Below are positions 1-22,900 of a stretch of DNA of 64,000 nt, piece after piece. The stretch's first letter is position 1. Every line of letters begins with the position of its first letter. The DNA is from Bacteroidota bacterium (lineage in GTDB: Bacteria; Bacteroidota; Bacteroidia; UBA7662). Both the position numbers and the translations under genes were made by a program. The notes under the pieces were generated by a model that did not search any database, had not been told where the DNA came from, and saw nothing but the letters and a program-made list of their open reading frames with translations. Where the stretch lies: the NCBI GenBank assembly GCA_036787895.1, contig DAIQOK010000007.1, positions 42,883 through 106,882 of the forward strand, in the 5' to 3' direction.

Positions 1-112
1 GAATCAACACTATGTAGACATATATTATCTTTTCATATTGTTAAATAAACTACATTTAAGACATCCAAACTAAAGATGTTCTAATTCCAAACCTACAGCA
101 GAACTCAATCGC

Positions 113-3100
113 ATGAAATCTATCGTTTTTATCGATACCGAAATTGAGCCTAAAAGCTTGCGGATACTGGATATAGGGGGCATTAAGAGCGATGGCAGTT
201 CTTTTCATAAAACTTCGCCTCTTGATTTTATTCAGTTTTTAAAAGGAGTAAAGTTTATTGCGGGGCACAACGTTTTAAATCACGATTACAAATATATTGG
301 CAACCTAATTACTGAGGCCGGCATTGCTCATGATGACCTCATAGATACATTATTCTTATCTCCTTTGCTTTTTCCTGCCAAGCCTTATCATACTTTATTA
401 AAAGACGACAAGCTGCAAACGGAAGAGATGAACAATCCTTTGAACGATGCCATAAAGGCAAAGGAATTGTTTGACGATGAGCTTGCTGCCTTTCAACAGC
501 TGGATGAAACGCTGAAACAGATTTTTTACAATTTGTTGTTTGACAAAAGGGAGTTTATCGCCTTTTTCCGTTTTTTGGAATACAAAGGGGGTTCACTTGA
601 TACCGAAACATTAATTCGACAAGTATTTAAAAAAGAGTTGTGTACACAGGCCAATCTTTCCCAAATAATTAGCGAAAAACCTATTGAACTGGCCTATTGT
701 ATATCGCTGATTCATGCTTTGGTTAAAAACAAAAAAACACATTCTATCACGCCCCCATGGGTGCTGCATAACTTTCCGGATGTTGAAAATATAATGTATC
801 GTTTGCGCAACCAGCCATGTGTAAGTGGCTGTGAGTATTGCAACAATGCTTTGGATATACACAAAGGACTTACTAGATTTTTTGGATTTGATAAGTTTAG
901 AACATATGCCGGTGAGCCCCTCCAGGAAAAAGCAGCCAAGGCGGCCATTAACAACAAATCGATTTTGGCCATTTTCCCTACCGGTGGCGGTAAATCAATT
1001 ACTTTTCAGCTGCCAGCCTTAATGAATGGTGAGCAAGCAAGGGGATTAACGGTTGTAATTTCCCCCTTACAATCGTTGATGAAAGACCAGGTTGATAATC
1101 TGGAAAGAATTGGCATAACAGATGCTGTTACCATTAATGGTTTACTAGATCCTATAGAAAGAGCCAAATCGTTTGAAAGGGTAGCCGATGGTTCAGCCAC
1201 TATCTTGTATATCTCGCCCGAATCGCTGCGGTCAAAGACAATTGAACGTTTATTACTGGGCAGAAACATCGTCCGATTTGTGATAGATGAAGCACACTGT
1301 TTTTCTTCCTGGGGCCAGGATTTTAGGGTTGATTATTTGTACATAGGCGATTTCATTAAACAGCTCCAGGAAAAGAAAAATCTTTCGGAAGGCATACCCG
1401 TTTCCTGTTTTACCGCAACAGCAAAACAGAAAGTAATTGAAGATATACGAGAATATTTTAAAGATAAACTATCGCTAGATCTTGAATTATTTACCTCCCA
1501 AGCAACGCGAACCAATCTCCAATACAAAGTATTTCAAAAAGGCACTGAAGATGAAAAATATCAAGAAGCCAGAGCCTTGATAGAAGCCAAAAATTGTCCT
1601 ACAATTATTTATGTTTCCAGAACTCGAAAAGCTTATTTACTGGCTGAAAGATTGTGCATGGATGGTTTTATTGCCAAGCCCTATCACGGCAAAATGGACA
1701 AACAGGAAAAGTCAGAAAACCAGGATTCGTTTATTAACGGTGAAACCCAAATAATGGTAGCAACTTCTGCTTTTGGTATGGGGGTTGATAAAAAGGATGT
1801 TGGCATGGTGATTCATTATGAAATATCCGACTCACTCGAAAATTACATACAAGAAGCCGGGAGAGCTGGGAGAGATGAAAATATAGTTGCAGATTGTTTT
1901 GTACTCTACAACGAAGAAGATTTAAGCAAACATTTTATCCTATTAAATCAGACTAAACTCTCGATTAAAGAGATACAACAAGTTTGGAAAGCCATCAAAG
2001 ATATCACCAAATTTCGTTCGAGTGTTTCAAACTCCGCTCTCGAAATAGCTAGAAAAGCAGGCTGGGATGACAATGTGGTTGAAATAGAAACCCGGGTAAC
2101 CACGGCAATTGCAGCTCTGGAAGATGCCGGCTATTTAAAACGCGGGCAAAATATGCCTCGAATTTTTGCTAATAGTATTCTATCAAAAAATGCTCAAGAG
2201 GCCATTGATAAAATTTGTGCTTCTGAAAAATTTGAAGAAAAGCAAAAAGAAACCGCTATTCGAATCATTAAAAAGCTCTTTTCCAGTAAAAGTAGAACAC
2301 AATCGGCAGAAGATCCAGCCGAATCAAGGGTAGATTATATCAGCGATCATTTAGGTATTCTAAAAAAAGATGTAATAAACATCATCAACTTGCTTCGTGA
2401 AGAGAAGATTTTAGCCGATAATAAAGATTTAACTGCATTTATAAAAAAAGGGGAGAATAAAAATCGTTCACTCAACATAGTTGAGAATTATCGAAAAATA
2501 GAAAACTTCCTTCTAACGAAATTTAGTCAGGAGGAAAAAACATTTCACATCAAAGAACTGAATGAAGAAGCCGAAAGTCAAGGCTGTGATGAGGTATCGC
2601 CCAGTAAAATTAAAACACTCATCAATTTTTGGGCAATTAAAAATTGGATTAGGCGTCAAAACTTACAATATTCAAAGAACCATTTTTCCGCCGTCTCACT
2701 CTATAGTCCTGATAGTTTAAAAGAAAAATTAGAGAAACGACATGTGTTGAGTGAATTCATTATTAATTTACTTCATACAAGAAGTAGTGCAAATAGTGAA
2801 AGCAAAGAAGAGGAAGTTTTAGTTGAGTTTTCTGTACATGAATTAAAATCAGCTTATGAAAAACTACCTGATTTATTTAAACTAGCCATAGGCATAGAGG
2901 ATATTGAAGACGCCCTCTTTTACCTATCCAGGATAGAAGCACTTAAAATTGAAGGTGGGTTTTTAGTGGTCTACAACAGTTTAACCATCGAACGCATTGA
3001 ACAAGACACTAAACGGCGTTATAAAGTTGAAGATTACCAAAAGCTCAATCAGTTTTATGAAAACAAAGTGCAGCAAATTCATATTGTTGGTGAGTATGCC

Positions 3101-4918
3101 AAAAAAATGATCAACGACTACAGAGAGGCATTACAATTTGTAGAAGATTATTTTCAACTCAATTATCAGTCATTTCTAAATAAATACTTCAAGGGCAGTC
3201 GTCAGAATGAAATCAAAAGAAATTTAACCCCTGAGAAATTCAAACAACTCTTTGGAGAACTGTCTCCAACCCAATTAAAAATTATAAACGACAACGAAAG
3301 TAAACACATAGCGGTTGCTGCCGGCCCCGGTAGCGGAAAAACACGGGTTTTGGTTCATAAATTGGCATCGTTGTTACTGATGGAAGATGTAAAACATGAG
3401 CAATTGCTTATGCTTACATTTTCACGGGCTGCTACTACAGAGTTTAAAAAGCGATTATTAAAACTTATTGGAAATGCAGCGAATTTCATCGAAATAAAAA
3501 CCTTTCACTCTTATTGTTTCGATTTATTAGGTAAGGTTGGTAGCCTTGAAAAGTCAGATGTAGTTTTGAAAAAGACCATTGACAAAATCAAACGAAAAGA
3601 AGTTGAGTCAAGTAGGATTACCAAAACCGTTTTGGTAATTGACGAAGCCCAGGACATGAACGAGGATGAATACAACCTAATAGCTACGTTGATGGAGGAA
3701 AACGAGGAAATGCGCGTAATAGCCGTAGGAGACGACGATCAGAATATTTACGAATTCAGAGGTGCCAGTTCCAAATATCTAGAACGTTTTATAAAAGAAA
3801 ACAATGCAAGTAAGCATGAAATTTTAGAAAATTACAGAAGTAAAAGTAATTTGGTAACACTTACAAATCACTTCGCAGCCACTATTCAACACCGTTTAAA
3901 AAGCACGCCCATCGTTGCCAAACAAACAGATTATGGAAAGTTAAAATTAGTTCGTTATCAAAGTGGAAAACTAATAAGTCCGCTGGTAGAGGGTGTATGT
4001 AGTGCTGAATTAAGGGGGACTAGCTGTGTGCTTACCAAAACCAATGAAGAAGCACAGCAAATAACCGGTCTGTTGTTAAAGAATAAACTTCAAGCAAAAT
4101 TGATTCAATCGAATGAAGGTTTTAGTTTATACAACCTTTTAGAGGTTCGTTTCTTTTTAGATCAACTTAAATTGTCAGATGATGTATTCGTTATTTCTGA
4201 TGAGGTTTGGGATAATGCCATTAGAGCATTAAAAAGCAAGTTTCAACGCAGCACGAAATTTGAAATATGTTTGAATATCATAAAGGATTTTAAAGAAGTC
4301 AACCCCAAAAGGAAATACAAATCTGATTTAGAAGTATTCATACGTGAATCCAAGATGGAAGACTTCTACAATGAGCACGGAGAAACTATTTTCGTATCTA
4401 CCATTCACAAAGCAAAAGGCAAAGAGTTTGACAACGTTTTCCTGATGCTTGACAACATCACAGCAAATAGCGATGAGGCCAAAAGACAATTGTATGTAGC
4501 CTTGACCAGGGCCAAACAACAATTGGTTATACATACTAATTCAACAGTTTTTGATACTATTTCGGCCGAACAGTTGGAAAGAATAGTTGACTTTGATCAA
4601 TACGAACAGCCCAAAGAGCTGGTCATGCATTTAAACTTAAAAGATGTGTGGCTTGACTATTTTATTGACAAACAAAATGCAATAGCAGAACTCATAGCCG
4701 GAGATATGTTGGTTATAAAGAACGATGAATGTTTGAATTCAAAAGGGGATTCTATTTTAAGGTTTTCAAGACATTTTTTGGCACAAATTGACGAATTACA
4801 AGAGAAAGGCTATCAATTGAAGTCAGGCAAGGTAAACTTCATCGTGTACTGGTTAAAGGAAGGCACTACGAATGAGGTAAGAGTTGTTTTGCCAGAGCTT
4901 TATTTTGAGAAAGTTTAG
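113..4918 (+). CDS. Large multidomain DNA-processing protein: N-terminal DnaQ/epsilon-like 3'-5' exonuclease, RecQ-family SF2 helicase core, uncharacterised ~350-aa middle region, C-terminal UvrD/PcrA-like SF1 helicase core
   Basis: The protein starts with a DEDD-type exonuclease signature (FIDTEIE ... HNVLNHDYKYI). RecQ motifs follow: motif I FPTGGGKSITFQLPAL, motif II FVIDEAHCFSSWGQDFRVDY (DEAH), motif III FTATA, motifs V-VI MVATSAFGMGVDKKDVGMVIHYEISDSLENYIQEAGRAGRD. UvrD motifs lie in the C-terminal third: motif I AAGPGSGKTRVL, motif Ia LTFSRAATTEF, motif II VIDEAQDMNEDEY, motif III GDDDQNIYEFRGA, motif IV NYRS, motif V STIHKAKGKEFDNVF, motif VI LYVALTRAK. It is a single uninterrupted 1601-aa ORF with ATG at 113. 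Confidence 0.8.
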   Translation: MKSIVFIDTEIEPKSLRILDIGGIKSDGSSFHKTSPLDFIQFLKGVKFIAGHNVLNHDYKYIGNLITEAGIAHDDLIDTLFLSPLLFPAKPYHTLLKDDKLQTEEMNNPLNDAIKAKELFDDELAAFQQLDETLKQIFYNLLFDKREFIAFFRFLEYKGGSLDTETLIRQVFKKELCTQANLSQIISEKPIELAYCISLIHALVKNKKTHSITPPWVLHNFPDVENIMYRLRNQPCVSGCEYCNNALDIHKGLTRFFGFDKFRTYAGEPLQEKAAKAAINNKSILAIFPTGGGKSITFQLPALMNGEQARGLTVVISPLQSLMKDQVDNLERIGITDAVTINGLLDPIERAKSFERVADGSATILYISPESLRSKTIERLLLGRNIVRFVIDEAHCFSSWGQDFRVDYLYIGDFIKQLQEKKNLSEGIPVSCFTATAKQKVIEDIREYFKDKLSLDLELFTSQATRTNLQYKVFQKGTEDEKYQEARALIEAKNCPTIIYVSRTRKAYLLAERLCMDGFIAKPYHGKMDKQEKSENQDSFINGETQIMVATSAFGMGVDKKDVGMVIHYEISDSLENYIQEAGRAGRDENIVADCFVLYNEEDLSKHFILLNQTKLSIKEIQQVWKAIKDITKFRSSVSNSALEIARKAGWDDNVVEIETRVTTAIAALEDAGYLKRGQNMPRIFANSILSKNAQEAIDKICASEKFEEKQKETAIRIIKKLFSSKSRTQSAEDPAESRVDYISDHLGILKKDVINIINLLREEKILADNKDLTAFIKKGENKNRSLNIVENYRKIENFLLTKFSQEEKTFHIKELNEEAESQGCDEVSPSKIKTLINFWAIKNWIRRQNLQYSKNHFSAVSLYSPDSLKEKLEKRHVLSEFIINLLHTRSSANSESKEEEVLVEFSVHELKSAYEKLPDLFKLAIGIEDIEDALFYLSRIEALKIEGGFLVVYNSLTIERIEQDTKRRYKVEDYQKLNQFYENKVQQIHIVGEYAKKMINDYREALQFVEDYFQLNYQSFLNKYFKGSRQNEIKRNLTPEKFKQLFGELSPTQLKIINDNESKHIAVAAGPGSGKTRVLVHKLASLLLMEDVKHEQLLMLTFSRAATTEFKKRLLKLIGNAANFIEIKTFHSYCFDLLGKVGSLEKSDVVLKKTIDKIKRKEVESSRITKTVLVIDEAQDMNEDEYNLIATLMEENEEMRVIAVGDDDQNIYEFRGASSKYLERFIKENNASKHEILENYRSKSNLVTLTNHFAATIQHRLKSTPIVAKQTDYGKLKLVRYQSGKLISPLVEGVCSAELRGTSCVLTKTNEEAQQITGLLLKNKLQAKLIQSNEGFSLYNLLEVRFFLDQLKLSDDVFVISDEVWDNAIRALKSKFQRSTKFEICLNIIKDFKEVNPKRKYKSDLEVFIRESKMEDFYNEHGETIFVSTIHKAKGKEFDNVFLMLDNITANSDEAKRQLYVALTRAKQQLVIHTNSTVFDTISAEQLERIVDFDQYEQPKELVMHLNLKDVWLDYFIDKQNAIAELIAGDMLVIKNDECLNSKGDSILRFSRHFLAQIDELQEKGYQLKSGKVNFIVYWLKEGTTNEVRVVLPELYFEKV

Positions 4919-5329
4919 GCTAACTGAGATAAAATCACAATTAGTTGACAATCCATCTCTCTGTGCTGCCGCAAAAAGCCGAATCGGGATAATACTACTG
5001 TCGTTCCGGCAACAGCAACAAACGCCCCGCCAAAGGTGCCTGGGCATAAGGCCCGTGGCTTTCGTGCATATCGGGACACATCAGCACCCAGCATTGGACT
5101 TCATAAACCGTAACAGGCCCCTCCTGTTGAACATTATTGTATTCTACGAAAAAAATGTATCTAATACCGGTTTATAAAACAGTCGAGTATTCGGAAAATA
5201 TATCACTAAAATTTCTGCCGGATATGTTTACACATCACGCAACCAACAACACATGGATCGGGAGAAAAATACTGTAGCAAATTGAGGCGGTATAAACCTA
5301 AATTTTGACATTACAACATAATAACAATT

Positions 5330-5447
5330 CACAGAAATTGTTGTATTTTTTCCATGAATTTTACAAAATTTAGCCATTAGCAGGAATTATTTAGTTTGAC
5401 TTTCTATATTTCTGAATTAGTAATTTAAGCTAATCGAAAAATAGCTC
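5330..5447 (+). promoter_or_regulatory. Candidate promoter region in the AT-rich 530-bp spacer upstream of the NUDIX/PLD-helicase operon
   Basis: This is a long AT-rich intergenic region. It contains TAGTTTG (~5390), which matches the Bacteroidota -7 TAnnTTTG consensus, a few tens of bp upstream of the NUDIX ATG at 5448. The call is positional only. Confidence 0.25.
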
Positions 5448-5870
5448 ATGACAGATAAACAAAAATCTCGAGAGAACAAATTGACAAAGTCAGTAAAGGT
5501 TTGTTGTGCTATAATTCTTAATGAGAAAAAAACACTTGTAGTTCAACGTAGTGAAAAGATGTCGTTACCTCTGAAATGGGAGTTTCCAGGTGGTAAAATA
5601 GAATTTGGAGAAACGGAAGAAGAATGTGTCCTTAGAGAGATAAAAGAGGAATTGAATATTGAAATTATCCTTATATCTAGATTAACCCCAACAACATTTT
5701 TTTATCCCAATATTGTGGTACATTTAGTTCCATTTTTGGCCGTATTTTCAAGGGGTGAGATGAAATTATCCGAACATATAAATTACAAATGGTTACAAAA
5801 GGATAAACTTGCTGAATTGGATTGGGCAGAAGCAGATATTCCAATATTAAAAGAATATATCAATATATGA
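5448..5870 (+). CDS. NUDIX hydrolase (MutT-like)
   Basis: The Nudix box GGKIEFGETEEECVLREIKEELNI fits the GX5EX7REUXEEXGU consensus. The protein is 140 aa. Its stop codon TGA overlaps the start codon of the next gene (ATGA at 5867-5870). Confidence 0.85.
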   Translation: MTDKQKSRENKLTKSVKVCCAIILNEKKTLVVQRSEKMSLPLKWEFPGGKIEFGETEEECVLREIKEELNIEIILISRLTPTTFFYPNIVVHLVPFLAVFSRGEMKLSEHINYKWLQKDKLAELDWAEADIPILKEYINI

Positions 5871-8800
5871 TAGAGGGTATTTACGAAGAGCTGGTAACGC
5901 AACTTGTAAGGCAAAATATAGGTGCTTTAGACCAGAGTTCATTCTATATTGAGAAGAGCGTTTTAGACAAAGAAGAGGCTGCAACAATTCTTGCCAAGCA
6001 TCTTGGTCAAACCATAAAACATGCCTTGAGCTATATTAAAGGCGAAAAATCTATAGAACTACAAATAGAGATTGCTAATAAAATTATATTATTTCTGAAA
6101 GAGGAACTGAAAAGAGAAGAATTTGATCAAGATCTTATAGCCATAGAGGGTGAAATATTGAAGGCTGTCTTTTCAAAAATTGATGCGCAATTTTCAGACA
6201 TAAACCTTCATTTAAAAGAAATTACCCCTTATACGCGACTAACACATAGTGAGCTCTTTACTGGTGGAAATGTGGGTTTGTCGCTAGAAAGCGAACTAAA
6301 AAAAGAGATTCTCTCAGCAAATGAAATTGATTTGCTCGTTTCCTTTATCAAGTTTAAAGGTATCATTATACTCGAAAGGGAATTGCGTGAGTTTGCAAAA
6401 CGTGGCGGAAAATTGCGCGTAATTACCACCACGTATATGGGCGCATCAGACTACAAGGCTATCCAGCTCTTGTCCAAATTACAGAATGCAGAAATAAGGA
6501 TATCCTACAATAATGGCAATGAACGCCTGCATGCCAAGGCTTATCTTTTCAAAAGGTCTACAGGTTTTCATACGGGATATATTGGTTCTTCCAATTTTTC
6601 GCGTTCAGCCCTTACTGATGGTTTAGAATGGAACCTGAAAATCACAACCAAAGAGGTAAGTCACATTATTGATAAGTTTCAGAAGACGTTTGATTCATAT
6701 TGGGTGAGTGATGATTTCGAAAAGTTTGATGATAGTATTCATAAGGAGAAATTGATTAGCTCACTGAATCAAGGAAGAATTGGAAAATCTACCTCATTAA
6801 ATACTAATTTTTTTGATGTTAAACCCTTTCCATTTCAGGAGGAAATACTTGAAAAGCTTGATGTTGAGCGTACAAAGCACCATAGAAATAGAAATCTAGT
6901 TGTAGCCGCAACCGGCACTGGTAAAACCGTTATTTCTGCATTTGATTTCAACAGATTCAAGAAAGATAACAGCTCTGCTAAGCTTCTTTTTTTAGCGCAT
7001 AGAAGGGAAATCCTAGAACAATCCATGAGTGCTTTTCGAGGCATTCTAAAAGATAACAATTTTGGCGAGTTATGGGTGGGAGGGATTGAACCTACGAGTT
7101 ATGAACATATTTTTGCATCCATTCAAATATTAAATAATCGTTTAAACGATTTAAATCTTTCTCCACAATATTTTGACTATATAGTAATTGATGAGTGTCA
7201 CCATTTAACTGCAAACTCTTATCGAGGAATCATTAATTATTTCAAGCCTAAAGTTTTAATTGGATTAACTGCCACGCCTGAACGAATGGATGGTGGAGAT
7301 ATTCAAGAAGATTTTCATCACCGAATTGCCGCTGAAATTCGATTGCCAGAAGCCCTAAACAGAAAGTTGTTATGCCCGTTTCAATATTTCGGAATTACAG
7401 ATAGTATAGATCTTTCTCGTATAGGGTGGGAACGCGGGCGATATATAGCCAGTGAATTGTCATCTATTTACACAGCAAACGATAAAAGGATTCGTGAAAT
7501 TATTGACGCATTAGAAAAGTATACCAGAGAACCTAGTGATGTTCGTGCACTTGGGTTTTGCGTAACTATGGAGCACGCCAAGTTTATGGCTGAGAAGTTT
7601 GCGCTTGCTGGACTCAAAGCAGATTATCTAACAAGCGACAACACCCAACACCGAGATAGTGTTAAAGAAATGTTGCTCAGGAAAGAAATTAATTACCTTT
7701 TTGTGGTTGATATTTTTAATGAAGGTGTTGATATTCCGGAAATTGATACCGTTTTGTTTTTAAGGCCAACAGAAAGTCTAACAATATTCTTACAGCAACT
7801 AGGTCGGGGGTTGCGTTTGGCAGAAAATAAAGAGGTCCTAACTGTTTTAGATTTCGTAGGAAATTCTAGACCTGAGTACAATTTTGAAAACAAATTCAGG
7901 GCACTCATTGGCAAAACCGCAACCACTGTAAAAAAAGAAATTGAAGACAATTTTCCGCATTTACCATTAGGCTGCTCTGTAATTTTGGAGAAAAAGGCAA
8001 AGCAGATTATTCTTGAGAATATCACGGCAGCCACTTCGCTCAACAGAAAACAACTAATTCTAAAGATTCAAAGCTTTCAACATCAAACATTACTCGATTT
8101 AAACTTGAAGAATTTTATAGAATTTTATAATATCCCACTTCAATTGATCTATAAGCGCGGGAGCTGGAAAAGACTTTGCCATGAGGCTGGTAGGATTAAA
8201 GATTTTGAAAGTACTAACGAAAAACAAATTGTAAATGCCATTTCAAATAAATGGCTTTCGTGTAACTCATTAAGCTATTTTGAGTTTGTTCGAACTTTAG
8301 CAGAAAATCAATTTAATATATCTGGAATTAAGTTCAATAAAGCTGAGAAGCAAATGCTTTTGATGCTACATTATGATGTTTGGCAAAGTGCAGGCGGCTT
8401 TTCTTCTTTAAAAAATAGTATTGAAGAATTGGGGAAAAACCAGATATTAATTGATGAAATAATAGAAGTCTTGAATATTTTAATTGACAGAGTTGACTTC
8501 AAAGAAATAGACATTGACCTACCCTACCAACAGCCCTTAAAAGTTCATGCGCGTTACACTAGAGATCAAATATTAGCGGCTTTTGGCCTTAGTACCTTTG
8601 AAAAAAAATCTTCAAACCGTGAAGGTGCTGCTGTAAATTTAGCACTGAATACAGAGCTTTTATTTATCAATTTAATTAAGTCAGAAGAAAACTTCTCTCC
8701 TACCACCATGTATGATGACTATGCGATTAATGAAAACCTGTTTCATTGGCAAAGTCAAAATTCAGCAGGCCCAGAAACTCCTAAAGGTTTGTCCTACTTA

Positions 8801-9007
8801 GACCATGAACGGAATCAAAAGAAAATATTACTTTTTATTCGCGAGAAGAATAAAGATGAATTTGGCAATACTCAGGGCTATGTGTTTGTAGGCGAAGCAA
8901 ATTTGCGAGATCATTATGGTGCAAAACCAATGAACATAAAATGGGAGTTGAATGAGCCTTTGCCCCATTTTTTGTGGCATGATGCAGCAAAACTGAGGGT
9001 GGGTTAG
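5867..9007 (+). CDS. PLD-family (HKD) nuclease domain + SF2 ResIII/DEAH-type helicase + C-terminal DUF3427-like domain protein
   Basis: An HKD-type motif RLHAKAYLF ... GSSNFS lies in the N-terminal third. Helicase motif I is VVAATGTGKTVISAF, motif II is IVIDECHHLT, motif III is GLTATPER, and motif VI is QQLGRGLR. The C-terminal ~250 aa (HARYTRDQILAAFG ... GYVFVGEANL) resembles DUF3427, which commonly follows this helicase type. I place the start at ATG 5867, overlapping the NUDIX stop. The ORF track begins at 5822 with a non-ATG start. Confidence 0.8.
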   Translation: MIEGIYEELVTQLVRQNIGALDQSSFYIEKSVLDKEEAATILAKHLGQTIKHALSYIKGEKSIELQIEIANKIILFLKEELKREEFDQDLIAIEGEILKAVFSKIDAQFSDINLHLKEITPYTRLTHSELFTGGNVGLSLESELKKEILSANEIDLLVSFIKFKGIIILERELREFAKRGGKLRVITTTYMGASDYKAIQLLSKLQNAEIRISYNNGNERLHAKAYLFKRSTGFHTGYIGSSNFSRSALTDGLEWNLKITTKEVSHIIDKFQKTFDSYWVSDDFEKFDDSIHKEKLISSLNQGRIGKSTSLNTNFFDVKPFPFQEEILEKLDVERTKHHRNRNLVVAATGTGKTVISAFDFNRFKKDNSSAKLLFLAHRREILEQSMSAFRGILKDNNFGELWVGGIEPTSYEHIFASIQILNNRLNDLNLSPQYFDYIVIDECHHLTANSYRGIINYFKPKVLIGLTATPERMDGGDIQEDFHHRIAAEIRLPEALNRKLLCPFQYFGITDSIDLSRIGWERGRYIASELSSIYTANDKRIREIIDALEKYTREPSDVRALGFCVTMEHAKFMAEKFALAGLKADYLTSDNTQHRDSVKEMLLRKEINYLFVVDIFNEGVDIPEIDTVLFLRPTESLTIFLQQLGRGLRLAENKEVLTVLDFVGNSRPEYNFENKFRALIGKTATTVKKEIEDNFPHLPLGCSVILEKKAKQIILENITAATSLNRKQLILKIQSFQHQTLLDLNLKNFIEFYNIPLQLIYKRGSWKRLCHEAGRIKDFESTNEKQIVNAISNKWLSCNSLSYFEFVRTLAENQFNISGIKFNKAEKQMLLMLHYDVWQSAGGFSSLKNSIEELGKNQILIDEIIEVLNILIDRVDFKEIDIDLPYQQPLKVHARYTRDQILAAFGLSTFEKKSSNREGAAVNLALNTELLFINLIKSEENFSPTTMYDDYAINENLFHWQSQNSAGPETPKGLSYLDHERNQKKILLFIREKNKDEFGNTQGYVFVGEANLRDHYGAKPMNIKWELNEPLPHFLWHDAAKLRVG

Positions 9008-9152
9008 GTGAAAAGGGGATAATATTCTTGTGATCAGGTTTAATACAAGTCTTTTTATACACCAGAAGCAGTTACAGAAATCACAAAGAAGTAAAGTAGT
9101 TCGAGTAGACCCAGCCTCTACAAAAGGAAGCCACCTAAAAAAGGAGTTATCG

Positions 9153-9201
9153 CCCTGCCTTTGGGCCTTTTCGTATTCACCGGCTGCCGTTGGGGCATAC
9201 A
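9153..9201. repeat. Direct repeat copy A (~47 bp) duplicating the 5' end of the downstream TlpA-like lipoprotein gene; candidate att site
   Basis: cctgcctttgggccttttcgtattcaccggctgccgttggggcataca (copy A) against cctgcttttgggccttttcgtattcatcggctgccgttggggcataca at ~10470-10518, with 2 mismatches in 47 bp. Flanking bases are also partly similar (cctaaaaaagga / cctaaaaaggaa). Confidence 0.8.
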
Positions 9202-9292
9202 AAGTGTAGGCAATACAGCAGACAATTTCTATTGAATCTGAAAGAAGCACACATAGCACCAAGCAATAAAACCTTTGTCATACCCAAGGTAA

Positions 9293-9393
9293 ATGTCGAT
9301 TTTTTCCTGTTTCATCGACATATCCGAATAATAGGTTTATGCCATCGACATAAGCCACAGATATGTTTAAAACTGGGCAATATTTCGACATAT
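9293..9393. repeat. Cluster of four TCGACATA-type 8-bp motifs (one inverted, three direct); candidate protein-binding (arm-type/operator) sites
   Basis: atgtcgat at 9293-9300 (inverted); tcgacata at 9315-9322, 9345-9352 and 9385-9392. Spacing between copies is ~30-40 bp. The region is non-coding and lies immediately inside repeat copy A. Confidence 0.6.
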
Positions 9394-9484
9394 CTCGAAA
9401 ATAGCTTTACAACAGCGATAGGTTAACCAACTAAAAAACACACATGGGACCAGCAACCGTTTGGTTTTATAATCTCGTGTAGGG

Positions 9485-10084
9485 TCAATCTTCTCCCTTC
9501 AAAGTAATCAAATCAAAATACATCAATCTCGTGGACAAAGGTATGCTGGGTTCATGTCCAGTGTGTTCTGCTTCCTGTTTTTCGGTACTGAATATAAACT
9601 CGAAGCTATTGTCTTGATAATACTTTAGGGGTGCAGCTTGGTTATAGGCATCTACAACGATGAAGCGACATCCGGTTTTATTTTGTTCATCTACAAACCA
9701 AGATTTAATAAAATCCATCAGTTCTTTGCCGATTCCTCTTTTTTTAAAGTCTTCTGCAACACCCAAGCGACCAATTAATACTGCAGGATAACTTCTTATG
9801 TGTTTCTCTCTTGGAACATCCTTGATAACCTTCTTTTTCCGGCTGCCTGGCATTCCATTTACTTTTATGCTGTCGTTGGATATTGTGAATGCACAAACCA
9901 TTTGACATGGAGATTCATCGGTAGTGAATACATAAGTTTTGCCAAGCAATTCTCTGGCATAAGCCAATGCCTCGTTTTCAAAAAAGTCGTTTAAGTCTGC
10001 ATTTCCACAGTCGAGTGGTTTGCAGGATTTGAAAAGATCTGCCGTGAGCAGTTGCAATTGGCAATGTTCGAGCAGATAACCCAA
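9485..10084 (-). CDS. GNAT-family N-acetyltransferase, toxin-like (candidate type II TA toxin)
   Basis: The 199-aa protein has an acetyl-CoA-binding GNAT core (VLIGRLGVAEDFKKRGIGKELM). It is preceded 11 bp upstream by a small ORF. Its position in the island and its size class are consistent with GNAT toxins, but the toxin assignment is inferential. Confidence 0.55.
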   Translation of the reverse strand: MGYLLEHCQLQLLTADLFKSCKPLDCGNADLNDFFENEALAYARELLGKTYVFTTDESPCQMVCAFTISNDSIKVNGMPGSRKKKVIKDVPREKHIRSYPAVLIGRLGVAEDFKKRGIGKELMDFIKSWFVDEQNKTGCRFIVVDAYNQAAPLKYYQDNSFEFIFSTEKQEAEHTGHEPSIPLSTRLMYFDLITLKGED

Positions 10085-10095
10085 CGGCTGAATGT

Positions 10096-10254
10096 TTAAA
10101 TATTAGCCTTTTTAAGAATTGCTTTTGCTGTTTTTTGTTGCGCGCTGAAGTTAACAGTAGCTTTTTTTGCCAAGCCTGCTTTGGCTTTTTTCTGAAAAGA
10201 CGCAGCTACCCGTCCGGTGAGTACAGGAATAGATTTAATAGTAGTTGCCATCAT
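10096..10254 (-). CDS. Unannotated small ORF (~52 aa, MMATTIKSIPVLTGRVAASFQKKAKAGLAKKATVNFSAQQKTAKAILKKANI), candidate antitoxin/partner of the GNAT gene
   Basis: I translated this by hand from the minus strand: ATG (revcomp) at 10252-10254 and TAA stop at 10096-10098. It is lysine-rich and lies immediately upstream of and co-oriented with the GNAT gene. It is below the 60-aa cutoff of the supplied ORF track. Confidence 0.4.
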   Translation of the reverse strand: MMATTIKSIPVLTGRVAASFQKKAKAGLAKKATVNFSAQQKTAKAILKKANI

Positions 10255-10450
10255 CGTTTCGTTTTAGTGTCTACAAAATAAACATAAAGGACTGATATAC
10301 CAAAACATAAGACAGTTAACCTATCTCAGGTCTATTCATCATTTCATCGCTTGAGTGAACCTCAAAGCCTTCCAAATCGTTCTGCACGGTATACCATTTG
10401 GCTCAGCTTCAATCGTATCTTTATCCCCATCCCCTAAAAAGGAAAACCAC

Positions 10451-11701
10451 ATGAAAAAATTAACACTCGGCCTGCTTTTGGGCCTTTTCGTATTCATCGG
10501 CTGCCGTTGGGGCATACATCTCGAAGGGCAGTACCGCCTCCAATTTGGCCAATGGCGCGGAGCGCTGCTTACCGATGGGGGCGAGTTGCCCTTTATTTTT
10601 GAGATGAGTCGTTTGCCCGATTCGTCTTTCAGCTTTGTGCTGCACGATGGCGATCAACTGGTGGAGTCGAGCGAGTTTGAGATTGTGGGCGATTCGTTTA
10701 TTGTGCGTTTTCCGGTCTTTGAGAGTACTTTAATCGGTGCCATCTCTACCATGGGCGATACGCTGCGGGGGGAGTTGATACGAGTGAAATACGATGTAGA
10801 AAGCCGCTTGCCTTTTGTGGCGGTAGCAGGGGGTAAATATAAGTTCGCTGCCATTAGTGGCCGACTGCCGGCCGAGCTAGATGGCAAATGGCAGACGACC
10901 ATGTACAAAAACAATGGCGACAGCACCGAAGCCATCGGCCTGTTTAGCCAGACCGGCAGCGACATTAGCGGTTCTTTTGCCACCAATTTTGGCGATTACC
11001 GCTTTTTGAGCGGCATAGTCGATGGCGATTCGTTGTTTATGTCGGGTTTCGACGGTTCGGGAGCTTATTTGTTCAAGGCGCGTTACGACAAAGTCACCGC
11101 TACCCTCAGCGGCGATATGTATGCCGGGCAGTCGAAAATCCGGACTTGGAAAGCGGTGCGTAATGCCGACTACCAACTCGCCGATCCGAACGCGCTCACC
11201 TACCTCAAAAATCCGAAAGCCGGCATCAGCTTCAGCTTCCCGAATACCGAAGGCAAAATGATCAGCACCTCCGACCCGGCCTACCAGGACAAAGTGGTGG
11301 TACTGCAAATTTTAGGCAGCTGGTGCCCGAATTGTCTGGATGAAACACCTTTTTTGGCCGAATTCCACAACAAATACCAAAGTCAAGGACTCGAAGTTAT
11401 CGGCCTCGGATTTGAACGTACCGCCATTAAAGAGAAGGCCTTCAACAATCTGCAGCGCCTGAAAACCCGCTACAAAGCCAATTACGAAATAGTTTTGGCC
11501 GGCACCCCCGATTCAACCGGTGTAGCCAACGCCTTGCCGAATCTGGCGAAAATAGCCGCTTTCCCGACCACCATTTTTATCGATAAAAAAGGTGTGGTTC
11601 GACGCATACATACCGGCTTTAATGGTCCCGCCACCGGCGAACCTTATACCGAATACCAGGCCGAGTTTACGCATTACATCGAAAGTCTGCTCGCCGAATG
11701 A
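10451..11701 (+). CDS. TlpA-like thiol:disulfide oxidoreductase (thioredoxin-fold) lipoprotein
   Basis: A lipoprotein-type signal peptide, MKKLTLGLLLGLFVFIGC, starts at ATG 10451. The C-terminal redoxin domain carries a WCPNC active site (VVLQILGSWCPNCLDETPFLAEF). The stop overlaps the mfd start (ATGA). Confidence 0.8.
   Translation: MKKLTLGLLLGLFVFIGCRWGIHLEGQYRLQFGQWRGALLTDGGELPFIFEMSRLPDSSFSFVLHDGDQLVESSEFEIVGDSFIVRFPVFESTLIGAISTMGDTLRGELIRVKYDVESRLPFVAVAGGKYKFAAISGRLPAELDGKWQTTMYKNNGDSTEAIGLFSQTGSDISGSFATNFGDYRFLSGIVDGDSLFMSGFDGSGAYLFKARYDKVTATLSGDMYAGQSKIRTWKAVRNADYQLADPNALTYLKNPKAGISFSFPNTEGKMISTSDPAYQDKVVVLQILGSWCPNCLDETPFLAEFHNKYQSQGLEVIGLGFERTAIKEKAFNNLQRLKTRYKANYEIVLAGTPDSTGVANALPNLAKIAAFPTTIFIDKKGVVRRIHTGFNGPATGEPYTEYQAEFTHYIESLLAE
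10470..10518. repeat. Direct repeat copy B (within the signal-peptide codons of the tlpA-like gene); partner of copy A
   Basis: See copy A: 45 of 47 bases are identical. Confidence 0.8.
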
Positions 11702-19956: not shown

Positions 19957-22900
19957 TTATTCTGATTTAACGAACTTACCAAAGGAGAGTTTCGATTGCA
20001 TTTCCAAGCGATAACTATATGCACCGGAAGCAAAACCTTCAATGTTTACATCAATTCGGCTTAAACCTGCATCAACCTGAATTGTTTTAACTTTTCTTCC
20101 CATAGCATCGAAAATATCCAAAGTCGCACCCTTTTCAACTTGCTCATTTATTTCAATAGAAATTTGGTTGGTTGCTGGGTTTGGATATAATACGCTATTG
20201 ATTAGTCCTAAGTTCTGAGTGCTCGTGGTATTTGAAATAGTCACACAGCTCGTGTCATTAGCGCGGTTATTATCTCCTGGCATGAGTGTGAAAGCACAGA
20301 GCTCAAAAGTCATACCCTGGGTCGGGTTCCATTGCTCTGAAAAGCTGTGTTGAAGTGAATCACCAGCTGCAATGCTTGCCAATATGGTATTGGTACGGAT
20401 AAAGTTGCCCGGCATTACGCGATAACTTACATCAAAACCAGTTGCCGGAATCTGACCAAAATTACGAATCATGACAGTCACCGTTTGTGGCGAATTAACT
20501 ATAGCTCCATTAGCAGGTGACACTATGCGATAAACACCTACGTCTGGCAACTGTTGGTTAACAAAAACGGTTACAGTATCACGTTTCACACAATTGCCAT
20601 CGCTGTAGGTAGCCACATAGGTTGTAGTGACTGTTGGGCGCACGACAAATTGACGTCCTTGACCGAGATATACGCCCGCTAAGGTACTCCAGCCGACTGT
20701 ATCATTGCTAATTAGAGTATAACCTCTATTCAAATAACCAATGCTCGAAACAGTATCTGCGGAGTTCAAGCTCCAGTCGTTGGCACTATTGGTGTCGAAA
20801 ATTGTCTTGCGGAACAAACCAACTACTGATGCACTTCCTGAAATATTACTATTACTTGGCCATTCTGAAGCCGGAACTCCAAATGATGAAGGAAAATCTG
20901 CAGAATTATATCTTACCGCATCAATTACGGTAGTTCCATTTGATTCATAGAGTACAACAGCAGCAGGACTGGTACTCGATAGCCATTCATTATTATCGGC
21001 ACCTCCTAAGAAGTACAGATTGTTGGCTATATCGTTGGCAGCTGTACCTGGCATAATTATCGCCACAGCACCAGGAGCCAGGACTGCTCCAGTCGGGAAG
21101 GTTAATTGATGGGTAATTGTGCCAATAGCTGCTTTAACTACCAAACCGGCAAGATTTACCGGGGATGTGCTGATATTACTAATTTCTACATAGTCGTCAT
21201 CAACACTTGTGTTTGGTAAATAAGGAGGGAAAGTCGTTTGCCTTGTAGTTGCACTTCCTCCTTTATAATACATAAACTCAGAGATCAGCAGAGCACCTTG
21301 TCCACCAGAACTACCCCCGCGAGTAGTGGTGGATAGAATAGCTGAGTCACCAACACTTATGGTTTGGTCTGGACCAGCATTTATGAACAGATAGTCATCT
21401 GCATACAATTGGACTGCTGATACTGTTGTAATACTTGTGCTGCTTACGGTTTCTACGAAATAGCGTACTGTATCTCCTGACGCTGCTGCCGGTATGGTTG
21501 CAGTATAATAATTACCCGATAAGGTCATTGGCAATGACGTGGTCGTGCCATTATTTACAGTGTATTTGAGACTAACCGTATTCAACAGAGGTACTGAAAA
21601 AATCCGGGCAGCAACTGTTTTTGCAGTTGGGCTACAAGCTGGAGTTACAGCAGTAATTGAGTCAAATCTCGCATCAGCAGGTACAAAAAACATGAGGTCA
21701 TCAACAATGTTGACAGATGGTGGTGCGCCAGCGTAATTATAGCGCACATTGGAATGAAGGGTAATTTTAACAGTGTCGCCCACAAAATCATCCAAATCAT
21801 ATTCCAAACGCATGGTATCGGTATTACTAGCCGCCGAAACCGCTATAAAATCTGTAGTGGTTCGGCCCATTGCAGCCAAAGGCTGGCCATTAACCAGTAC
21901 TCTAAAATGCGTGCTGTTTGCAGCCCGGTACAATTGCAGCAATTTAAAGCTCAATTTAAGGCGCTGAATTTGAGACGCATCAACGTAATAGTCGACATAT
22001 GTCTGAAAAGCTGGATTTAAAGTGTGCCAGTTTGTATTGTTCGCAGTAACCCAAGGGGTTCCGGATGCATTGCCAGAAAGTACTAAGCTATGCGTTCCAG
22101 AAATATTCAGACTAGTACTGCCGCCTGTTGCGAGAACTTCAGCATTTGAGTTAGCGCCATTAACAACACATAATGAAGCTGGAAGCACGCCTGAATCGAA
22201 ATTATCTGTATGAGGAACGCTTAATACAGTGCTTACGCCAATATTGTATTGTACAGTTACAGTGTCATTAGCAGTATTAACATCGCCTGATTTACCGGCC
22301 CATACACGAAGCGTATTCACACCTGAAAGCAGTTGAACTTGCTGACGAAAAACATAGGTAACTACTTGAGCACTTGAGAGGCTGGTAAAGACAGTATCCG
22401 TGACAACCGGTCCGTTGTTGTGCTGATAAAACACTATAGTGCTATCCAGGTTTAAAGTACCGGCATTTACTACTTCAATTGAAACGGCAGATAAAAGATT
22501 CGTCAAACACACCACTCCCGGAGCATATATATTACCACCTGATATGATAGATGCGCTGTTTATTGCAGCATCAACACCAGCAGGAACAAATTCCAAGGCG
22601 CCCATATCCGGAGAAGCCGATCTATTCTGGCCATTCAAATCCTGTGTAACGAACGCGAGTAAATTTGCTCCGGAATTATTCAAAAATACATTTGAAGGCG
22701 TAAAATTATCTGCTGGCAAATTAATAAAATCAGGATTTACTGCCACACTGTTAGAGTCATAAGGCGTTCCAACACCCCCTGCTGCTTTCCAGTCGGCCAT
22801 TGTAGTCCTGGCACTGCTTCGGTAACCAATATGTGCAAGACCCGTAGATCCTGGAGGGGTTTGAATCCAAAATGCATTGTGATCTGTTTCCAATTGAGTT

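What the first reader, a model, noticed from the sequence alone, without database searches (positions are those of the whole stretch)
113..4918. Single 1601-aa polypeptide combining a DnaQ-like exonuclease, a RecQ (SF2) helicase core and a UvrD/PcrA (SF1) helicase core
All seven RecQ motifs and all UvrD motifs (I, Ia, II-VI) are intact and in canonical order in one uninterrupted ORF. An N-terminal DEDD exonuclease-like segment precedes them, and a ~350-aa region between the two motors has no motifs I recognise. Exonuclease plus RecQ is the Werner-helicase (WRN) arrangement. I know of no characterised bacterial protein that also carries a complete second SF1 motor. Two 3'-5' translocases of different superfamilies plus an exonuclease suggests a dedicated DNA-end or replication-fork processing machine. 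It sits in an AT-rich, probably acquired region next to other nuclease/helicase genes, so an anti-phage or anti-plasmid role is plausible.
Basis: partly seen in the sequence, partly recalled or inferred. Interest (0 to 1): 0.85.

Follow-up and report, generated by a model that had tools for sequence, protein, structure and literature searches.

The report
Exonuclease–RecQ–UvrD triple-enzyme giant helicase
One intact 1601-residue gene really does join a DnaQ-type 3'-5' exonuclease, a RecQ motor, a string of DNA-binding winged helices and a UvrD-type motor; it belongs to a large, horizontally mobile, uncharacterised bacterial family, and here it sits in a swappable defence-gene hotspot.

Summary

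It is not a chimera. The same ~1600-aa architecture is found in at least 589 species genomes and about 1100 50%-identity clusters, across several phyla and on plasmids. All catalytic residues of the three modules are conserved down to 29% identity. One departure: the exonuclease's usual His/Tyr general base is replaced by a family-wide Asn.

The gene stands alone, with no conserved partner. It is far more similar across Bacteroidota families (75-82%) than the host's Mfd (56-59%). It lies in a 36%-GC island in a 50%-GC genome, beside a NUDIX gene and a SauUSI-like type IV restriction enzyme. A sister genome carries SoFic+HNH at the same site.

Most likely it is a mobile, single-protein DNA-branch or 3'-end unwinding-and-degrading enzyme used against foreign DNA. 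That role is inferred, not shown. No dedicated family model or paper was found.

The parts
113..4918 (+). Complete ORF, 1601 aa (stop at 4916-4918): Exo-RecQ-WH array-UvrD fusion protein
   Evidence: Full-length homologues at 52-82% identity over 100% of the length.
113..502 (+). aa 1-130: DnaQ-like DEDD 3'-5' exonuclease fold. Exo I is D8/E10. Exo II is H52-N53...D58. There is an 'IDTL' motif at D78-T79. Exo III is N107-N108-P-L-N-D112. A conserved flexible loop carries H93/K97/K100.
503..868 (+). aa 131-252: helical linker with an invariant Cys cluster (C177, C236-x3-C240-x2-C243), a putative zinc site just before the RecQ core
   Evidence: AF2 secondary structure. Cys conserved in 53-54 of 54 homologues. 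Zinc binding is inferred.
869..2023 (+). aa 253-637: RecQ-family SF2 helicase core. Walker A is PTGGGKS 289-295; DEAH 392-395; aromatic-rich loop HCFSSWGQDFRVDY 395-408; motif VI QEAGRAGRD 580-588.
   Evidence: Pfam DEAD/Helicase_C. TIGR00614 above cutoff. PDB phmmer E about 1e-50 to E. coli RecQ, RECQL5, BLM and RECQ1. Motifs read; conservation.
2024..2962 (+). aa 638-950: array of about four winged-helix (wHTH) domains. The first follows a Cys-less helical hairpin in the position of the RecQ zinc/WH (RQC) region.
2963..3256 (+). aa 951-1048: highly conserved helical segment preceding the SF1 core. It resembles the region N-terminal to motif I of helicase IV.
   Evidence: NF008276 helicase IV aligns aa 968-1163 to profile positions 118-305. 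Per-block conservation 0.75-0.80. Helices.
3257..4543 (+). aa 1049-1477: UvrD/PcrA/Rep-type SF1A helicase core. Q motif at 1054; Walker A AAGPGSGKT 1069-1077; motif II DEAQD 1177-1181; III GDDDQ 1206-1210; IV YRS 1241-1243; V 1430-1440; VI TRAK 1465-1468.
   Evidence: Pfam UvrD-helicase, AAA_19, UvrD_C. PDB phmmer: PcrA 1.4e-26, then UvrD1, UvrD, Rep, GajB. Conservation.
4544..4915 (+). aa 1478-1601: C-terminal domain of unknown fold. It is weakly conserved (about 30% identity), with the motif KDVxLD...SGDxL...S..F...GY...A.V.FIV.W...LPxL.
   Evidence: No significant hit in Pfam or PDB, by single sequence or by profile.
5448..5870 (+). Neighbour: NUDIX hydrolase (PADLOC candidate PDC-S07). Its stop overlaps the likely start of the next gene.
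5867..9007 (+). Neighbour: SauUSI-like type IV modification-dependent restriction enzyme (PLD nuclease, SF2 helicase, DUF3427). The mechanical ORF starts at 5822; the likely start is M16 at 5867.
   Evidence: PADLOC mREase_IV E 3e-235. Pfam PLDc_2/ResIII/DUF3427. 74% identical to the gene directly after the homologue in Hydrotalea locus L009. SauUSI architecture from PMC3141236.
9137..10518 (.). Right edge of the island. A 65-nt direct repeat (9137-9201 and 10454-10518) duplicates the 5' end of the redoxin gene and brackets a GNAT acetyltransferase gene (9485-10084, minus strand). Synteny with a sister genome resumes at 10451.

Best explanation
The gene encodes a stand-alone, horizontally mobile, three-enzyme DNA-processing protein.

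What is shown:
- Domain order is DEDD 3'-5' exonuclease, Cys4 linker, RecQ SF2 motor, about four winged-helix DNA-binding domains, helicase-IV-like UvrD SF1A motor, and a small C-terminal domain.
- The metal-binding, ATPase and arginine-finger residues of all three catalytic modules are under strong purifying selection across a very large family.
- The gene is an exchangeable cargo of a defence-gene hotspot.

What is inferred about mechanism:
- Both motors track ssDNA 3'->5', as their families do.
- Two same-polarity motors cannot co-move from a duplex end. They can co-move on a branched molecule, for example one on the nascent leading strand and one on the lagging-strand template of a fork, or on the strands of a D-loop or R-loop.
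- The winged-helix array would hold the duplex arms or branch point.
- The N-terminal exonuclease would then digest the 3' end that is peeled off.

What is inferred about role: the net effect is dismantling and 3'-end erosion of replication or recombination intermediates. The most probable biological use is restriction of invading or competing DNA (phage, plasmid, ICE), as a single-gene system.
For: Architecture and catalytic integrity. D8/E10/D58/D112, K294, DEAH, R584/R587 and R1466 are conserved in 53-54 of 54, and K1076, D1177/E1178 in 53-54 of 54, among homologues of 29-66% identity.

Fixed architecture: the N-terminal domain finds 1105 50%-identity clusters. Most long hits are 1580-1750 aa, i.e. 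this architecture. A minority are 780-1470 aa (truncated or variant; not examined). The rest are fragments.

Stand-alone gene: no neighbour family occurs in more than 5 of 84 loci.

Mobility:
- At least 589 species genomes across Bacteroidota, Clostridia, Lentisphaerae, Deltaproteobacteria and others.
- Full-length copies on plasmids of Bacteroides, Phocaeicola, Aliarcobacter, Nostoc and Cereibacter.
- 75-82% identity to Flavobacteriaceae, Chitinophagaceae and Cytophagales copies, against 56-59% for the host's Mfd to any named taxon.
- Gene GC is below flank GC in most loci. The window island is 0.36 against 0.50.

Defence context:
- The gene is adjacent to NUDIX PDC-S07 and a SauUSI-like type IV REase. 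The same helicase + SauUSI-like pairing occurs in Hydrotalea L009, with parallel 75%/74% divergence.
- Sister genomes keep the redoxin-mfd-usp backbone, but carry SoFic+HNH, or nothing defence-like, at this site.
- Neighbours elsewhere include HsdR, HNH, SoFic, AbiEii, pAgo, AriA, MNT/HepT, Gp49/HI1420, HipA, RES and BrnT.
Against: - No experiment and no phenotype exists for this family.
- No enrichment statistic against a genomic background was computed. Many neighbours are ordinary metabolic genes.
- The family is absent from PADLOC as a dedicated model; only partial DpdF, PsyrT and GajB hits appear.
- The canonical general base (His/Tyr) of DEDD exonucleases is replaced by Asn, so nuclease activity may be weak, altered or lost.
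- Carriage on plasmids next to parAB/rep fits an MGE-serving role equally well.
- The fork/D-loop geometry is reasoning from family polarities, not from data on this protein.
- The model of the middle region is only moderately confident (pLDDT 70).
Confidence: 0.5

Rival explanations
1. It is an accessory genome-maintenance enzyme for the host's own chromosome. It would be a bacterial functional analogue of WRN or Firmicutes DinG, combined with a Rep/UvrD/HelD-like accessory motor. It would clear R-loops, stalled forks, RecA filaments or transcription-replication conflicts and trim 3' ends.
For: - Each module belongs to a repair family.
- The closest structural neighbour of the exonuclease is DinG. 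B. subtilis DinG is a DEDD exonuclease plus helicase that mitigates replication stress (PMC12525004 abstract).
- Sequence conservation is very high (mean column identity 87% among close homologues).
- Many loci have ordinary chromosomal neighbours.
- The UvrD part resembles helicase IV.
Against: - The distribution is patchy and crosses phyla. Identity far exceeds that of a housekeeping gene.
- The gene has no fixed chromosomal position.
- It is present at a hotspot that holds SoFic+HNH, or nothing defence-like, in sister genomes.
- GC is low relative to flanks, and copies occur on plasmids.
- Core repair genes are not normally swapped like this.
Confidence: 0.27
2. It is a factor that serves mobile elements rather than the host. 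It would be carried by plasmids, ICEs or genomic islands to help their own establishment or replication, or to attack competitors and host defences. Possible activities are processing the incoming single strand, removing host proteins, or destroying rival replicons.
For: - Full-length copies sit on plasmids. One is immediately beside parA/parB/rep and a type IV coupling protein in Aliarcobacter pACIB. Another is about 3 kb from the nearer of two ssb genes (the other about 6 kb) and about 6-7 kb from parA/parG in the Bacteroides finegoldii plasmid. Others are on cyanobacterial and alphaproteobacterial (mega)plasmids.
- Toxin-antitoxin genes and IS elements are frequent neighbours.
Against: - Only 11 of 72,556 plasmid records carry a copy covering at least 80% of the query.
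- No phage record carries a full-length copy.
- Most copies are chromosomal, without obvious conjugation genes next to them.
- Defence systems themselves are often plasmid-borne, so this evidence does not discriminate well.
Confidence: 0.15
3. The fusion is an artefact: two or three adjacent genes joined by an assembly or sequencing error, or a decaying pseudogene.
For: One relative (Nostoc punctiforme pNPUN02) is annotated as three consecutive CDSs.
Against: - An uninterrupted ORF is present in 84 of 86 independent loci, including finished chromosomes and plasmids.
- More than 240 full-length proteins of 1589-1660 aa were recovered.
- All junction regions are conserved.
Confidence: 0.01

Closest known systems
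Werner syndrome protein WRN (eukaryotic exonuclease-RecQ fusion)
   Same: An N-terminal DEDD-superfamily 3'-5' exonuclease is followed in cis by a RecQ-family SF2 helicase core and a winged-helix DNA-binding region. The helicase core matches WRN at E about 1e-33.
   Different: - This protein has Asn where WRN has the catalytic Tyr.
- It lacks the RecQ zinc subdomain and HRDC.
- It carries a complete second SF1 motor and a Cys4 linker.
- This is an independent fusion, not an orthologue.
Firmicutes DinG (S. aureus / B. subtilis): DEDD exonuclease fused to an XPD-like helicase
   Different: The DinG helicase is an SF2 XPD/Rad3-type 5'->3' motor, not RecQ. DinG has no UvrD module and no WH array. 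Identity is only 13% in the aligned region.
RecBCD / AddAB / AdnAB dual-motor helicase-nucleases
   Same: They combine two helicase cores (including UvrD-like SF1A) with nuclease activity in one machine that unwinds and degrades DNA. They have known roles in destroying foreign linear DNA.
   Different: They are hetero-oligomers. Their nucleases are PD-(D/E)XK, not DEDD. RecBCD's motors have opposite polarity so both move from a duplex end. Here an SF2 RecQ and an SF1A UvrD, both expected to be 3'->5', are in one chain, which implies a branched or internal substrate.
Helicase components of known defence systems: GajB (Gabija), PsyrT/RqlH (PsyrTA), DpdF (Dpd)
   Same: The RecQ part scores E 1e-96 to 1e-79 against PADLOC DpdF and PsyrT models. 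The UvrD part scores E about 1e-43 against GajB.
   Different: All hits are partial, covering the cores only. None of the obligatory partners is adjacent here or in 84 related loci (GajA OLD nuclease; PsyrA antitoxin; the other Dpd-cluster genes). Sources.
E. coli helicase IV (HelD) / UvrD / PcrA
   Same: SF1A motifs I-VI are present. The helical region before motif I aligns with helicase IV. The best solved match is PcrA.
   Different: Scores are far below every equivalog cutoff (for example pcrA 124 against 911, helicase IV 105 against 543). Here the module is the C-terminal third of a much larger protein.

Membership tests
RecQ family helicases (SF2) | SF2 motifs 0, I, Ia, II (DEAH), III-VI and a score above the family model threshold | tested here: met
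   TIGR00614 recQ_fam scores 270 bits against a cutoff of 219.8. Pfam DEAD and Helicase_C hit. K294, D392, E393, H395, R584 and R587 are invariant.
RecQ family helicases (SF2) | Aromatic-rich loop between motifs II and III (a RecQ hallmark, from established knowledge) | tested here: met
   HCFSSWGQDFRVDY at aa 395-408, read. W400, F404 and R405 are invariant.
RecQ family helicases (SF2) | RecQ-C-terminal zinc-binding Cys4 subdomain after the helicase lobes | tested here: not met
   Only one Cys (C595) lies in aa 590-700. The RecQ equivalog TIGR01389 aligns only to profile position 366 of 591 and scores 310 against a cutoff of 640. A different Cys4 cluster lies N-terminal of the core.
RecQ family helicases (SF2) | Winged-helix (RQC) domain and HRDC domain | tested here: inconclusive
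   No Pfam RQC or HRDC hit. The AF2 model shows winged-helix folds right after the core, but pLDDT there is 50-66. HRDC was not seen.
UvrD/Rep/PcrA SF1A helicases | Motifs Q, I, Ia, II-VI with the UvrD-helicase and UvrD_C domains | tested here: met
   PF00580 116.7 bits, PF13361 72.5 bits, PF13245 79.7 bits, all above cutoff. K1076, D1177, E1178, Q1210, R1242 and R1466 are conserved. PcrA scores E 1.4e-26.
UvrD/Rep/PcrA SF1A helicases | Orthology to a named enzyme (UvrD, PcrA, Rep, helicase IV) | tested here: not met
   All equivalog scores are far below their cutoffs.
DnaQ-like DEDD 3'-5' exonucleases | RNase H-like DnaQ fold | tested here: met
   [not shown]
DnaQ-like DEDD 3'-5' exonucleases | Four metal-binding carboxylates in Exo I, II and III | tested here: met
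   D58 and D112 are conserved in 54 of 54, and D8 and E10 in 53 of 54 (one gap), among diverse homologues.
DnaQ-like DEDD 3'-5' exonucleases | Fifth catalytic residue His (DEDDh, H-x4-D) or Tyr (DEDDy, Y-x3-D) | tested here: not met
   Both positions are Asn (N107 in 48/54, N108 in 42/54). The invariant H93 in the adjacent flexible loop is a candidate substitute; this is inference.
DnaQ-like DEDD 3'-5' exonucleases | Match to a curated sequence model (Pfam RNase_T or similar) | tested here: not met
   No hit even at E <= 10. The only signal is a weak profile hit, E 0.05, to the TREX1 homologue 9mrc.
DnaQ-like DEDD 3'-5' exonucleases | 3'-5' exonuclease activity | not testable with these tools
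   This needs a biochemical assay.
Gabija / PsyrTA / Dpd defence systems | Presence of the obligatory partner genes next to the helicase (GajA; PsyrA; dpd cluster) | tested here: not met
   No such neighbours occur in the window or as a recurrent neighbour in 84 loci.
Anti-phage/anti-plasmid defence genes (generic) | Location in variable defence islands or hotspots, with an HGT signature | tested here: met
   The hotspot is shared with SoFic+HNH in a sister genome. The gene is adjacent to a SauUSI-like REase. GC and identity contrasts support HGT. No background statistic was computed.
Anti-phage/anti-plasmid defence genes (generic) | Protection phenotype | not testable with these tools
   This needs phage, plasmid or conjugation challenge experiments.

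The most novel reading that the evidence does not exclude
The family is a previously unrecognised single-protein immune effector. It would recognise branched replication or recombination intermediates of invading DNA and use two same-polarity motors of different superfamilies (RecQ SF2 and UvrD SF1A) to peel both daughter arms of a fork or D-loop at once. A non-canonical (Asn-type) DEDD exonuclease would erase the freed 3' end. This is a 'fork-demolition' mechanism with no characterised precedent.
Probability: 0.25. Interest if true: 0.85.

Novelty: new variant of a known kind. Interest (0 to 1): 0.66.

Why it matters
Helicase-nuclease fusions (WRN, DinG, RecBCD/AddAB) are central to genome maintenance and immunity. 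I found no characterised protein that combines a RecQ motor, a UvrD motor and a DEDD exonuclease in one chain.

This family is large: at least 589 species, about 1100 50%-identity clusters, gut Bacteroides included. It is under strong constraint in all three active sites, is mobile, and is annotated only as 'RecQ family helicase'.

Working it out would show how two same-polarity motors of different superfamilies cooperate. It could also add a compact single-gene system to the defence repertoire, or alternatively reveal a new accessory replication-stress pathway. The Asn-for-His/Tyr exonuclease site and the relocated Cys4 cluster are testable structural oddities.

Tried and rejected
- Sequence-only identification of the N-terminal, middle and C-terminal regions gave nothing significant. 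This covered Pfam at E <= 10, NCBIfam, PHROGs and PDB by phmmer and by profile. Only structure prediction resolved the first two regions.
- E. coli genomes have no DNA match.
- An exact look-up of the window's own protein found no contig on record. The cluster look-up gave no names.
- The search for a conserved partner gene found none. A small upstream ORF in two Firmicutes loci is unrelated between them.
- Phage genomes show only RecQ-core hits, no full-length copy.
- Literature: six full-text searches found no paper on this fusion. Two candidate papers were read and are irrelevant. From memory, B. fragilis has three RecQ homologues studied for metronidazole survival, and one may belong here. 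I could not retrieve that paper, so it remains a lead only.
- The AFDB fold library was unavailable.
- Rfam found nothing in 1-10400. There are no tRNAs in the window.
- Chimera/frameshift was considered and rejected.
- Membership of Gabija, PsyrTA or Dpd was considered and rejected for lack of partner genes.
Full report

Window 113-4918 (+) is a single 1601-codon ORF with an ATG start and no internal stop.

Pfam places DEAD (aa 269-444) and Helicase_C (482-587) in the first half. It places UvrD-helicase/AAA_19 (1051-1262) and UvrD_C (1378-1477) in the last third, all well above the curated cutoffs. NCBIfam's RecQ-family subfamily model is passed (270 bits against 219.8). Every equivalog (recQ, pcrA, uvrD, rep, helicase IV) is missed by a wide margin. 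So both motors are bona fide family members but orthologues of none of the named enzymes.

The signature residues can be read directly in the translation:
- RecQ: Walker A PTGGGKS, DEAH, the RecQ aromatic-rich loop HCFSSWGQDFRVDY, and QEAGRAGRD.
- UvrD: AAGPGSGKT, DEAQD, GDDDQ, YRS, TRAK.

The solved structures most similar in sequence are E. coli RecQ, RECQL5, BLM and RECQ1 for the first core (E about 1e-50). For the second core they are PcrA, UvrD1, UvrD, Rep and GajB (E 1e-26 to 1e-14).

**2. The N-terminal 'exonuclease'**

No sequence library recognises aa 1-255.

I built a 27-sequence alignment from homologues of 41-61% identity. The AlphaFold2 model has pLDDT 87.4 and shows the beta1-beta2-beta3-alphaA-beta4-alphaB-beta5 order of the DnaQ fold.

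The four carboxylates D8, E10, D58 and D112 are invariant in 54 full-length homologues reaching down to 29% identity. The usual fifth residue is missing: where DEDDh has H-x4-D and DEDDy has Y-x3-D, this family has N107 and N108. An invariant H93/K97/K100 motif sits in the adjacent low-confidence loop and might supply the base; that is inference.

Activity remains untested.

The rest of the N-terminal region is helical and carries an invariant Cys cluster (C177, C236, C240, C243), a probable zinc site. The canonical RecQ zinc subdomain after the helicase is absent: there is only one Cys in aa 590-700.

**3. The middle and the C-terminus**

So the 'motif-free' 350 residues are a DNA-binding winged-helix array, not a hidden enzyme.

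Residues 951-1048 are among the best conserved in the protein. They align with the segment that precedes motif I in helicase IV.

The last ~125 residues have no detectable relative.

**4. Not a chimera, and not rare**

Two protein searches returned more than 240 full-length proteins of 1589-1660 aa.

It returned 589 confirmed relatives at 52-76% identity over residues 1-1600. They come from Bacteroidota, Clostridia, Lentisphaerae, Deltaproteobacteria and others, including finished chromosomes.

84 of 86 fetched loci hold one intact ORF of more than 1200 aa.

An exhaustive search with the N-terminal domain alone found 1105 50%-identity clusters:
- Most long hits are about 1580-1750 aa, i.e. the same architecture.
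- About a dozen are 780-1470 aa. These may be truncated or variant; I did not examine them.
- The rest are fragments.

Every source that names the protein calls it a RecQ(-family) ATP-dependent DNA helicase or DNA 3'-5' helicase, apart from one 'ATP-binding protein'.

**5. Context and mobility**

There is no conserved neighbour: the largest neighbour family occurs in 5 of 84 loci. The gene therefore works alone or with generic host factors.

Nearest-neighbour families are diverse. They repeatedly include restriction, toxin-antitoxin and other conflict genes: HNH, SoFic, HsdR, SauUSI-like REase, AbiEii, pAgo, AriA, Schlafen-like helicases, MNT/HepT, Gp49/HI1420, HipA, RES and BrnT.

Full-length copies lie on plasmids of Bacteroides finegoldii, Phocaeicola, Aliarcobacter (beside parAB/rep), Nostoc/Scytonema/Calothrix and alphaproteobacteria. 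No phage genome has a full-length copy.

In the window the gene heads a 36%-GC block in a 50%-GC Bacteroidota chromosome (a T9SS sorting domain indicates a Bacteroidota host). After a 530-bp spacer comes a NUDIX gene (PADLOC PDC-S07). That gene overlaps the start of a PLD-helicase-DUF3427 enzyme of the SauUSI type IV restriction class (PMC3141236).

The same helicase + SauUSI-like pair, 75% and 74% identical respectively, is adjacent in a Hydrotalea genome.

The host's Mfd is only 56-59% identical to any named taxon. The giant helicase is 75-82% identical to copies in Arenibacter, Flavobacterium, Hydrotalea and Marivirga. That is a clear horizontal-transfer signature.

The hotspot evidence is the most telling. 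Two sister genomes (Mfd 84% and 79% identical) keep the redoxin-mfd-usp-usp backbone. Upstream of the redoxin gene, one carries SoFic + HNH and the other carries unrelated housekeeping genes. Nucleotide synteny with the window resumes exactly at 10451. The helicase is thus interchangeable cargo of a defence hotspot.

**6. How it probably works**

Shown:
- Three catalytic modules with intact, strongly conserved active-site residues.
- A winged-helix array between the motors.
- A stand-alone, mobile gene resident in a defence hotspot.

Inferred from family knowledge:
- RecQ and UvrD/PcrA-type SF1A motors both move 3'->5' on ssDNA.
- DnaQ-type domains remove nucleotides from a 3'-OH end.

Two same-polarity motors on complementary strands would run apart from a duplex end. 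On a fork they can run together. One would track the nascent leading strand from its 3' end, and the other would track the lagging-strand template. Together they would unzip both daughter arms. Analogous geometries exist for D-loops and R-loops.

The exonuclease, at the N-terminus next to the RecQ motor, would erode the released 3' end. The WH array would hold the duplex or branch.

I therefore favour a branch- or 3'-end-directed 'unwind-and-erase' enzyme aimed at replication or recombination intermediates of foreign DNA. My confidence is about 0.5 for the conflict role. It is much higher for the architecture and lower for the specific geometry.

The main rivals are an accessory host repair enzyme of the WRN/DinG/Rep type (0.27) and an element-serving factor (0.15).

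**7. Comparison and novelty**

It works like WRN and Firmicutes DinG (exonuclease plus helicase in cis), and like RecBCD/AddAB/AdnAB (two motors plus a nuclease). It is a member of none of these:
- The exonuclease is DinG/TREX-like with an Asn variant.
- The RecQ part lacks the zinc subdomain and HRDC.
- The nuclease is not PD-(D/E)XK.
- The partners that define Gabija, PsyrTA or Dpd are absent.

PADLOC 2.0, Pfam, NCBIfam and PHROGs have no model for the whole protein or for its three non-motor regions. Six full-text searches found no description.

I rate it a new variant of a known kind (helicase-nuclease fusions). It represents a large uncharacterised family, and I give it an interest score of 0.66.

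Noticed in passing
window 5448-9007: A NUDIX hydrolase (PADLOC candidate PDC-S07) overlaps by 4 bp the likely start (5867) of a SauUSI-like type IV restriction enzyme (PLD, SF2 helicase, DUF3427), suggesting a two-gene operon. In Hydrotalea locus L009 the SauUSI-like gene follows the giant helicase directly, without the NUDIX gene.
   Followed up: partly
window 9137-10518: A 65-nt direct repeat (9137-9201 and 10454-10518, 86% identical) duplicates the 5' end of the redoxin gene. Window 9294-9376 matches the native upstream region of that gene in a sister genome. The GNAT acetyltransferase segment between the repeats looks like a second, separate insertion into the same hotspot.
   Followed up: partly
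L094 4000-8750 and L096 1-8750 (sister genomes), against window 1-10450: The site upstream of the conserved redoxin-mfd-usp-usp block is a variable hotspot. One sister genome has SoFic + HNH_2 + small unknown genes (GC 0.43 against 0.51). Another has a sigma54 regulator and a glycosyltransferase.
   Followed up: yes
window 4919-5447: This 530-bp non-coding spacer follows the giant gene and has a GC-rich stretch (about 4950-5130) unlike the rest of the island. It has no Rfam hit, and the only ORF (4884-5177) has no family match. It is possibly a remnant of an earlier junction.
   Followed up: partly
window 803-841 (aa 231-243) and aa 177: An invariant Cys cluster (C177, C236-x3-C240-x2-C243) lies immediately N-terminal of the RecQ core, while the canonical RecQ zinc subdomain C-terminal of the core is missing. 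The zinc site may have been relocated.
   Followed up: partly
L086 6797-11815 (Nostoc punctiforme pNPUN02): The cyanobacterial relative is annotated as three consecutive CDSs. The last, which corresponds to the UvrD_C part, is named '3'-5' exonuclease'. This is probably a decayed copy plus a naming quirk. It sits beside an N6-methylase/helicase pair and an ISNCY transposase.
   Followed up: no
window 19957-28344 (minus strand): A 2795-aa ORF carries beta-helix, lamin-tail, CARDB and type IX secretion sorting domains. It lies in a region of lower GC (0.41-0.44, about 20-30 kb).
   Followed up: no
window 10355-11701: The mechanical ORF for the redoxin lipoprotein starts at a GTG at 10355. Synteny with the sister genome begins at 10451, so the real start is probably about 96 nt downstream.
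   Followed up: partly
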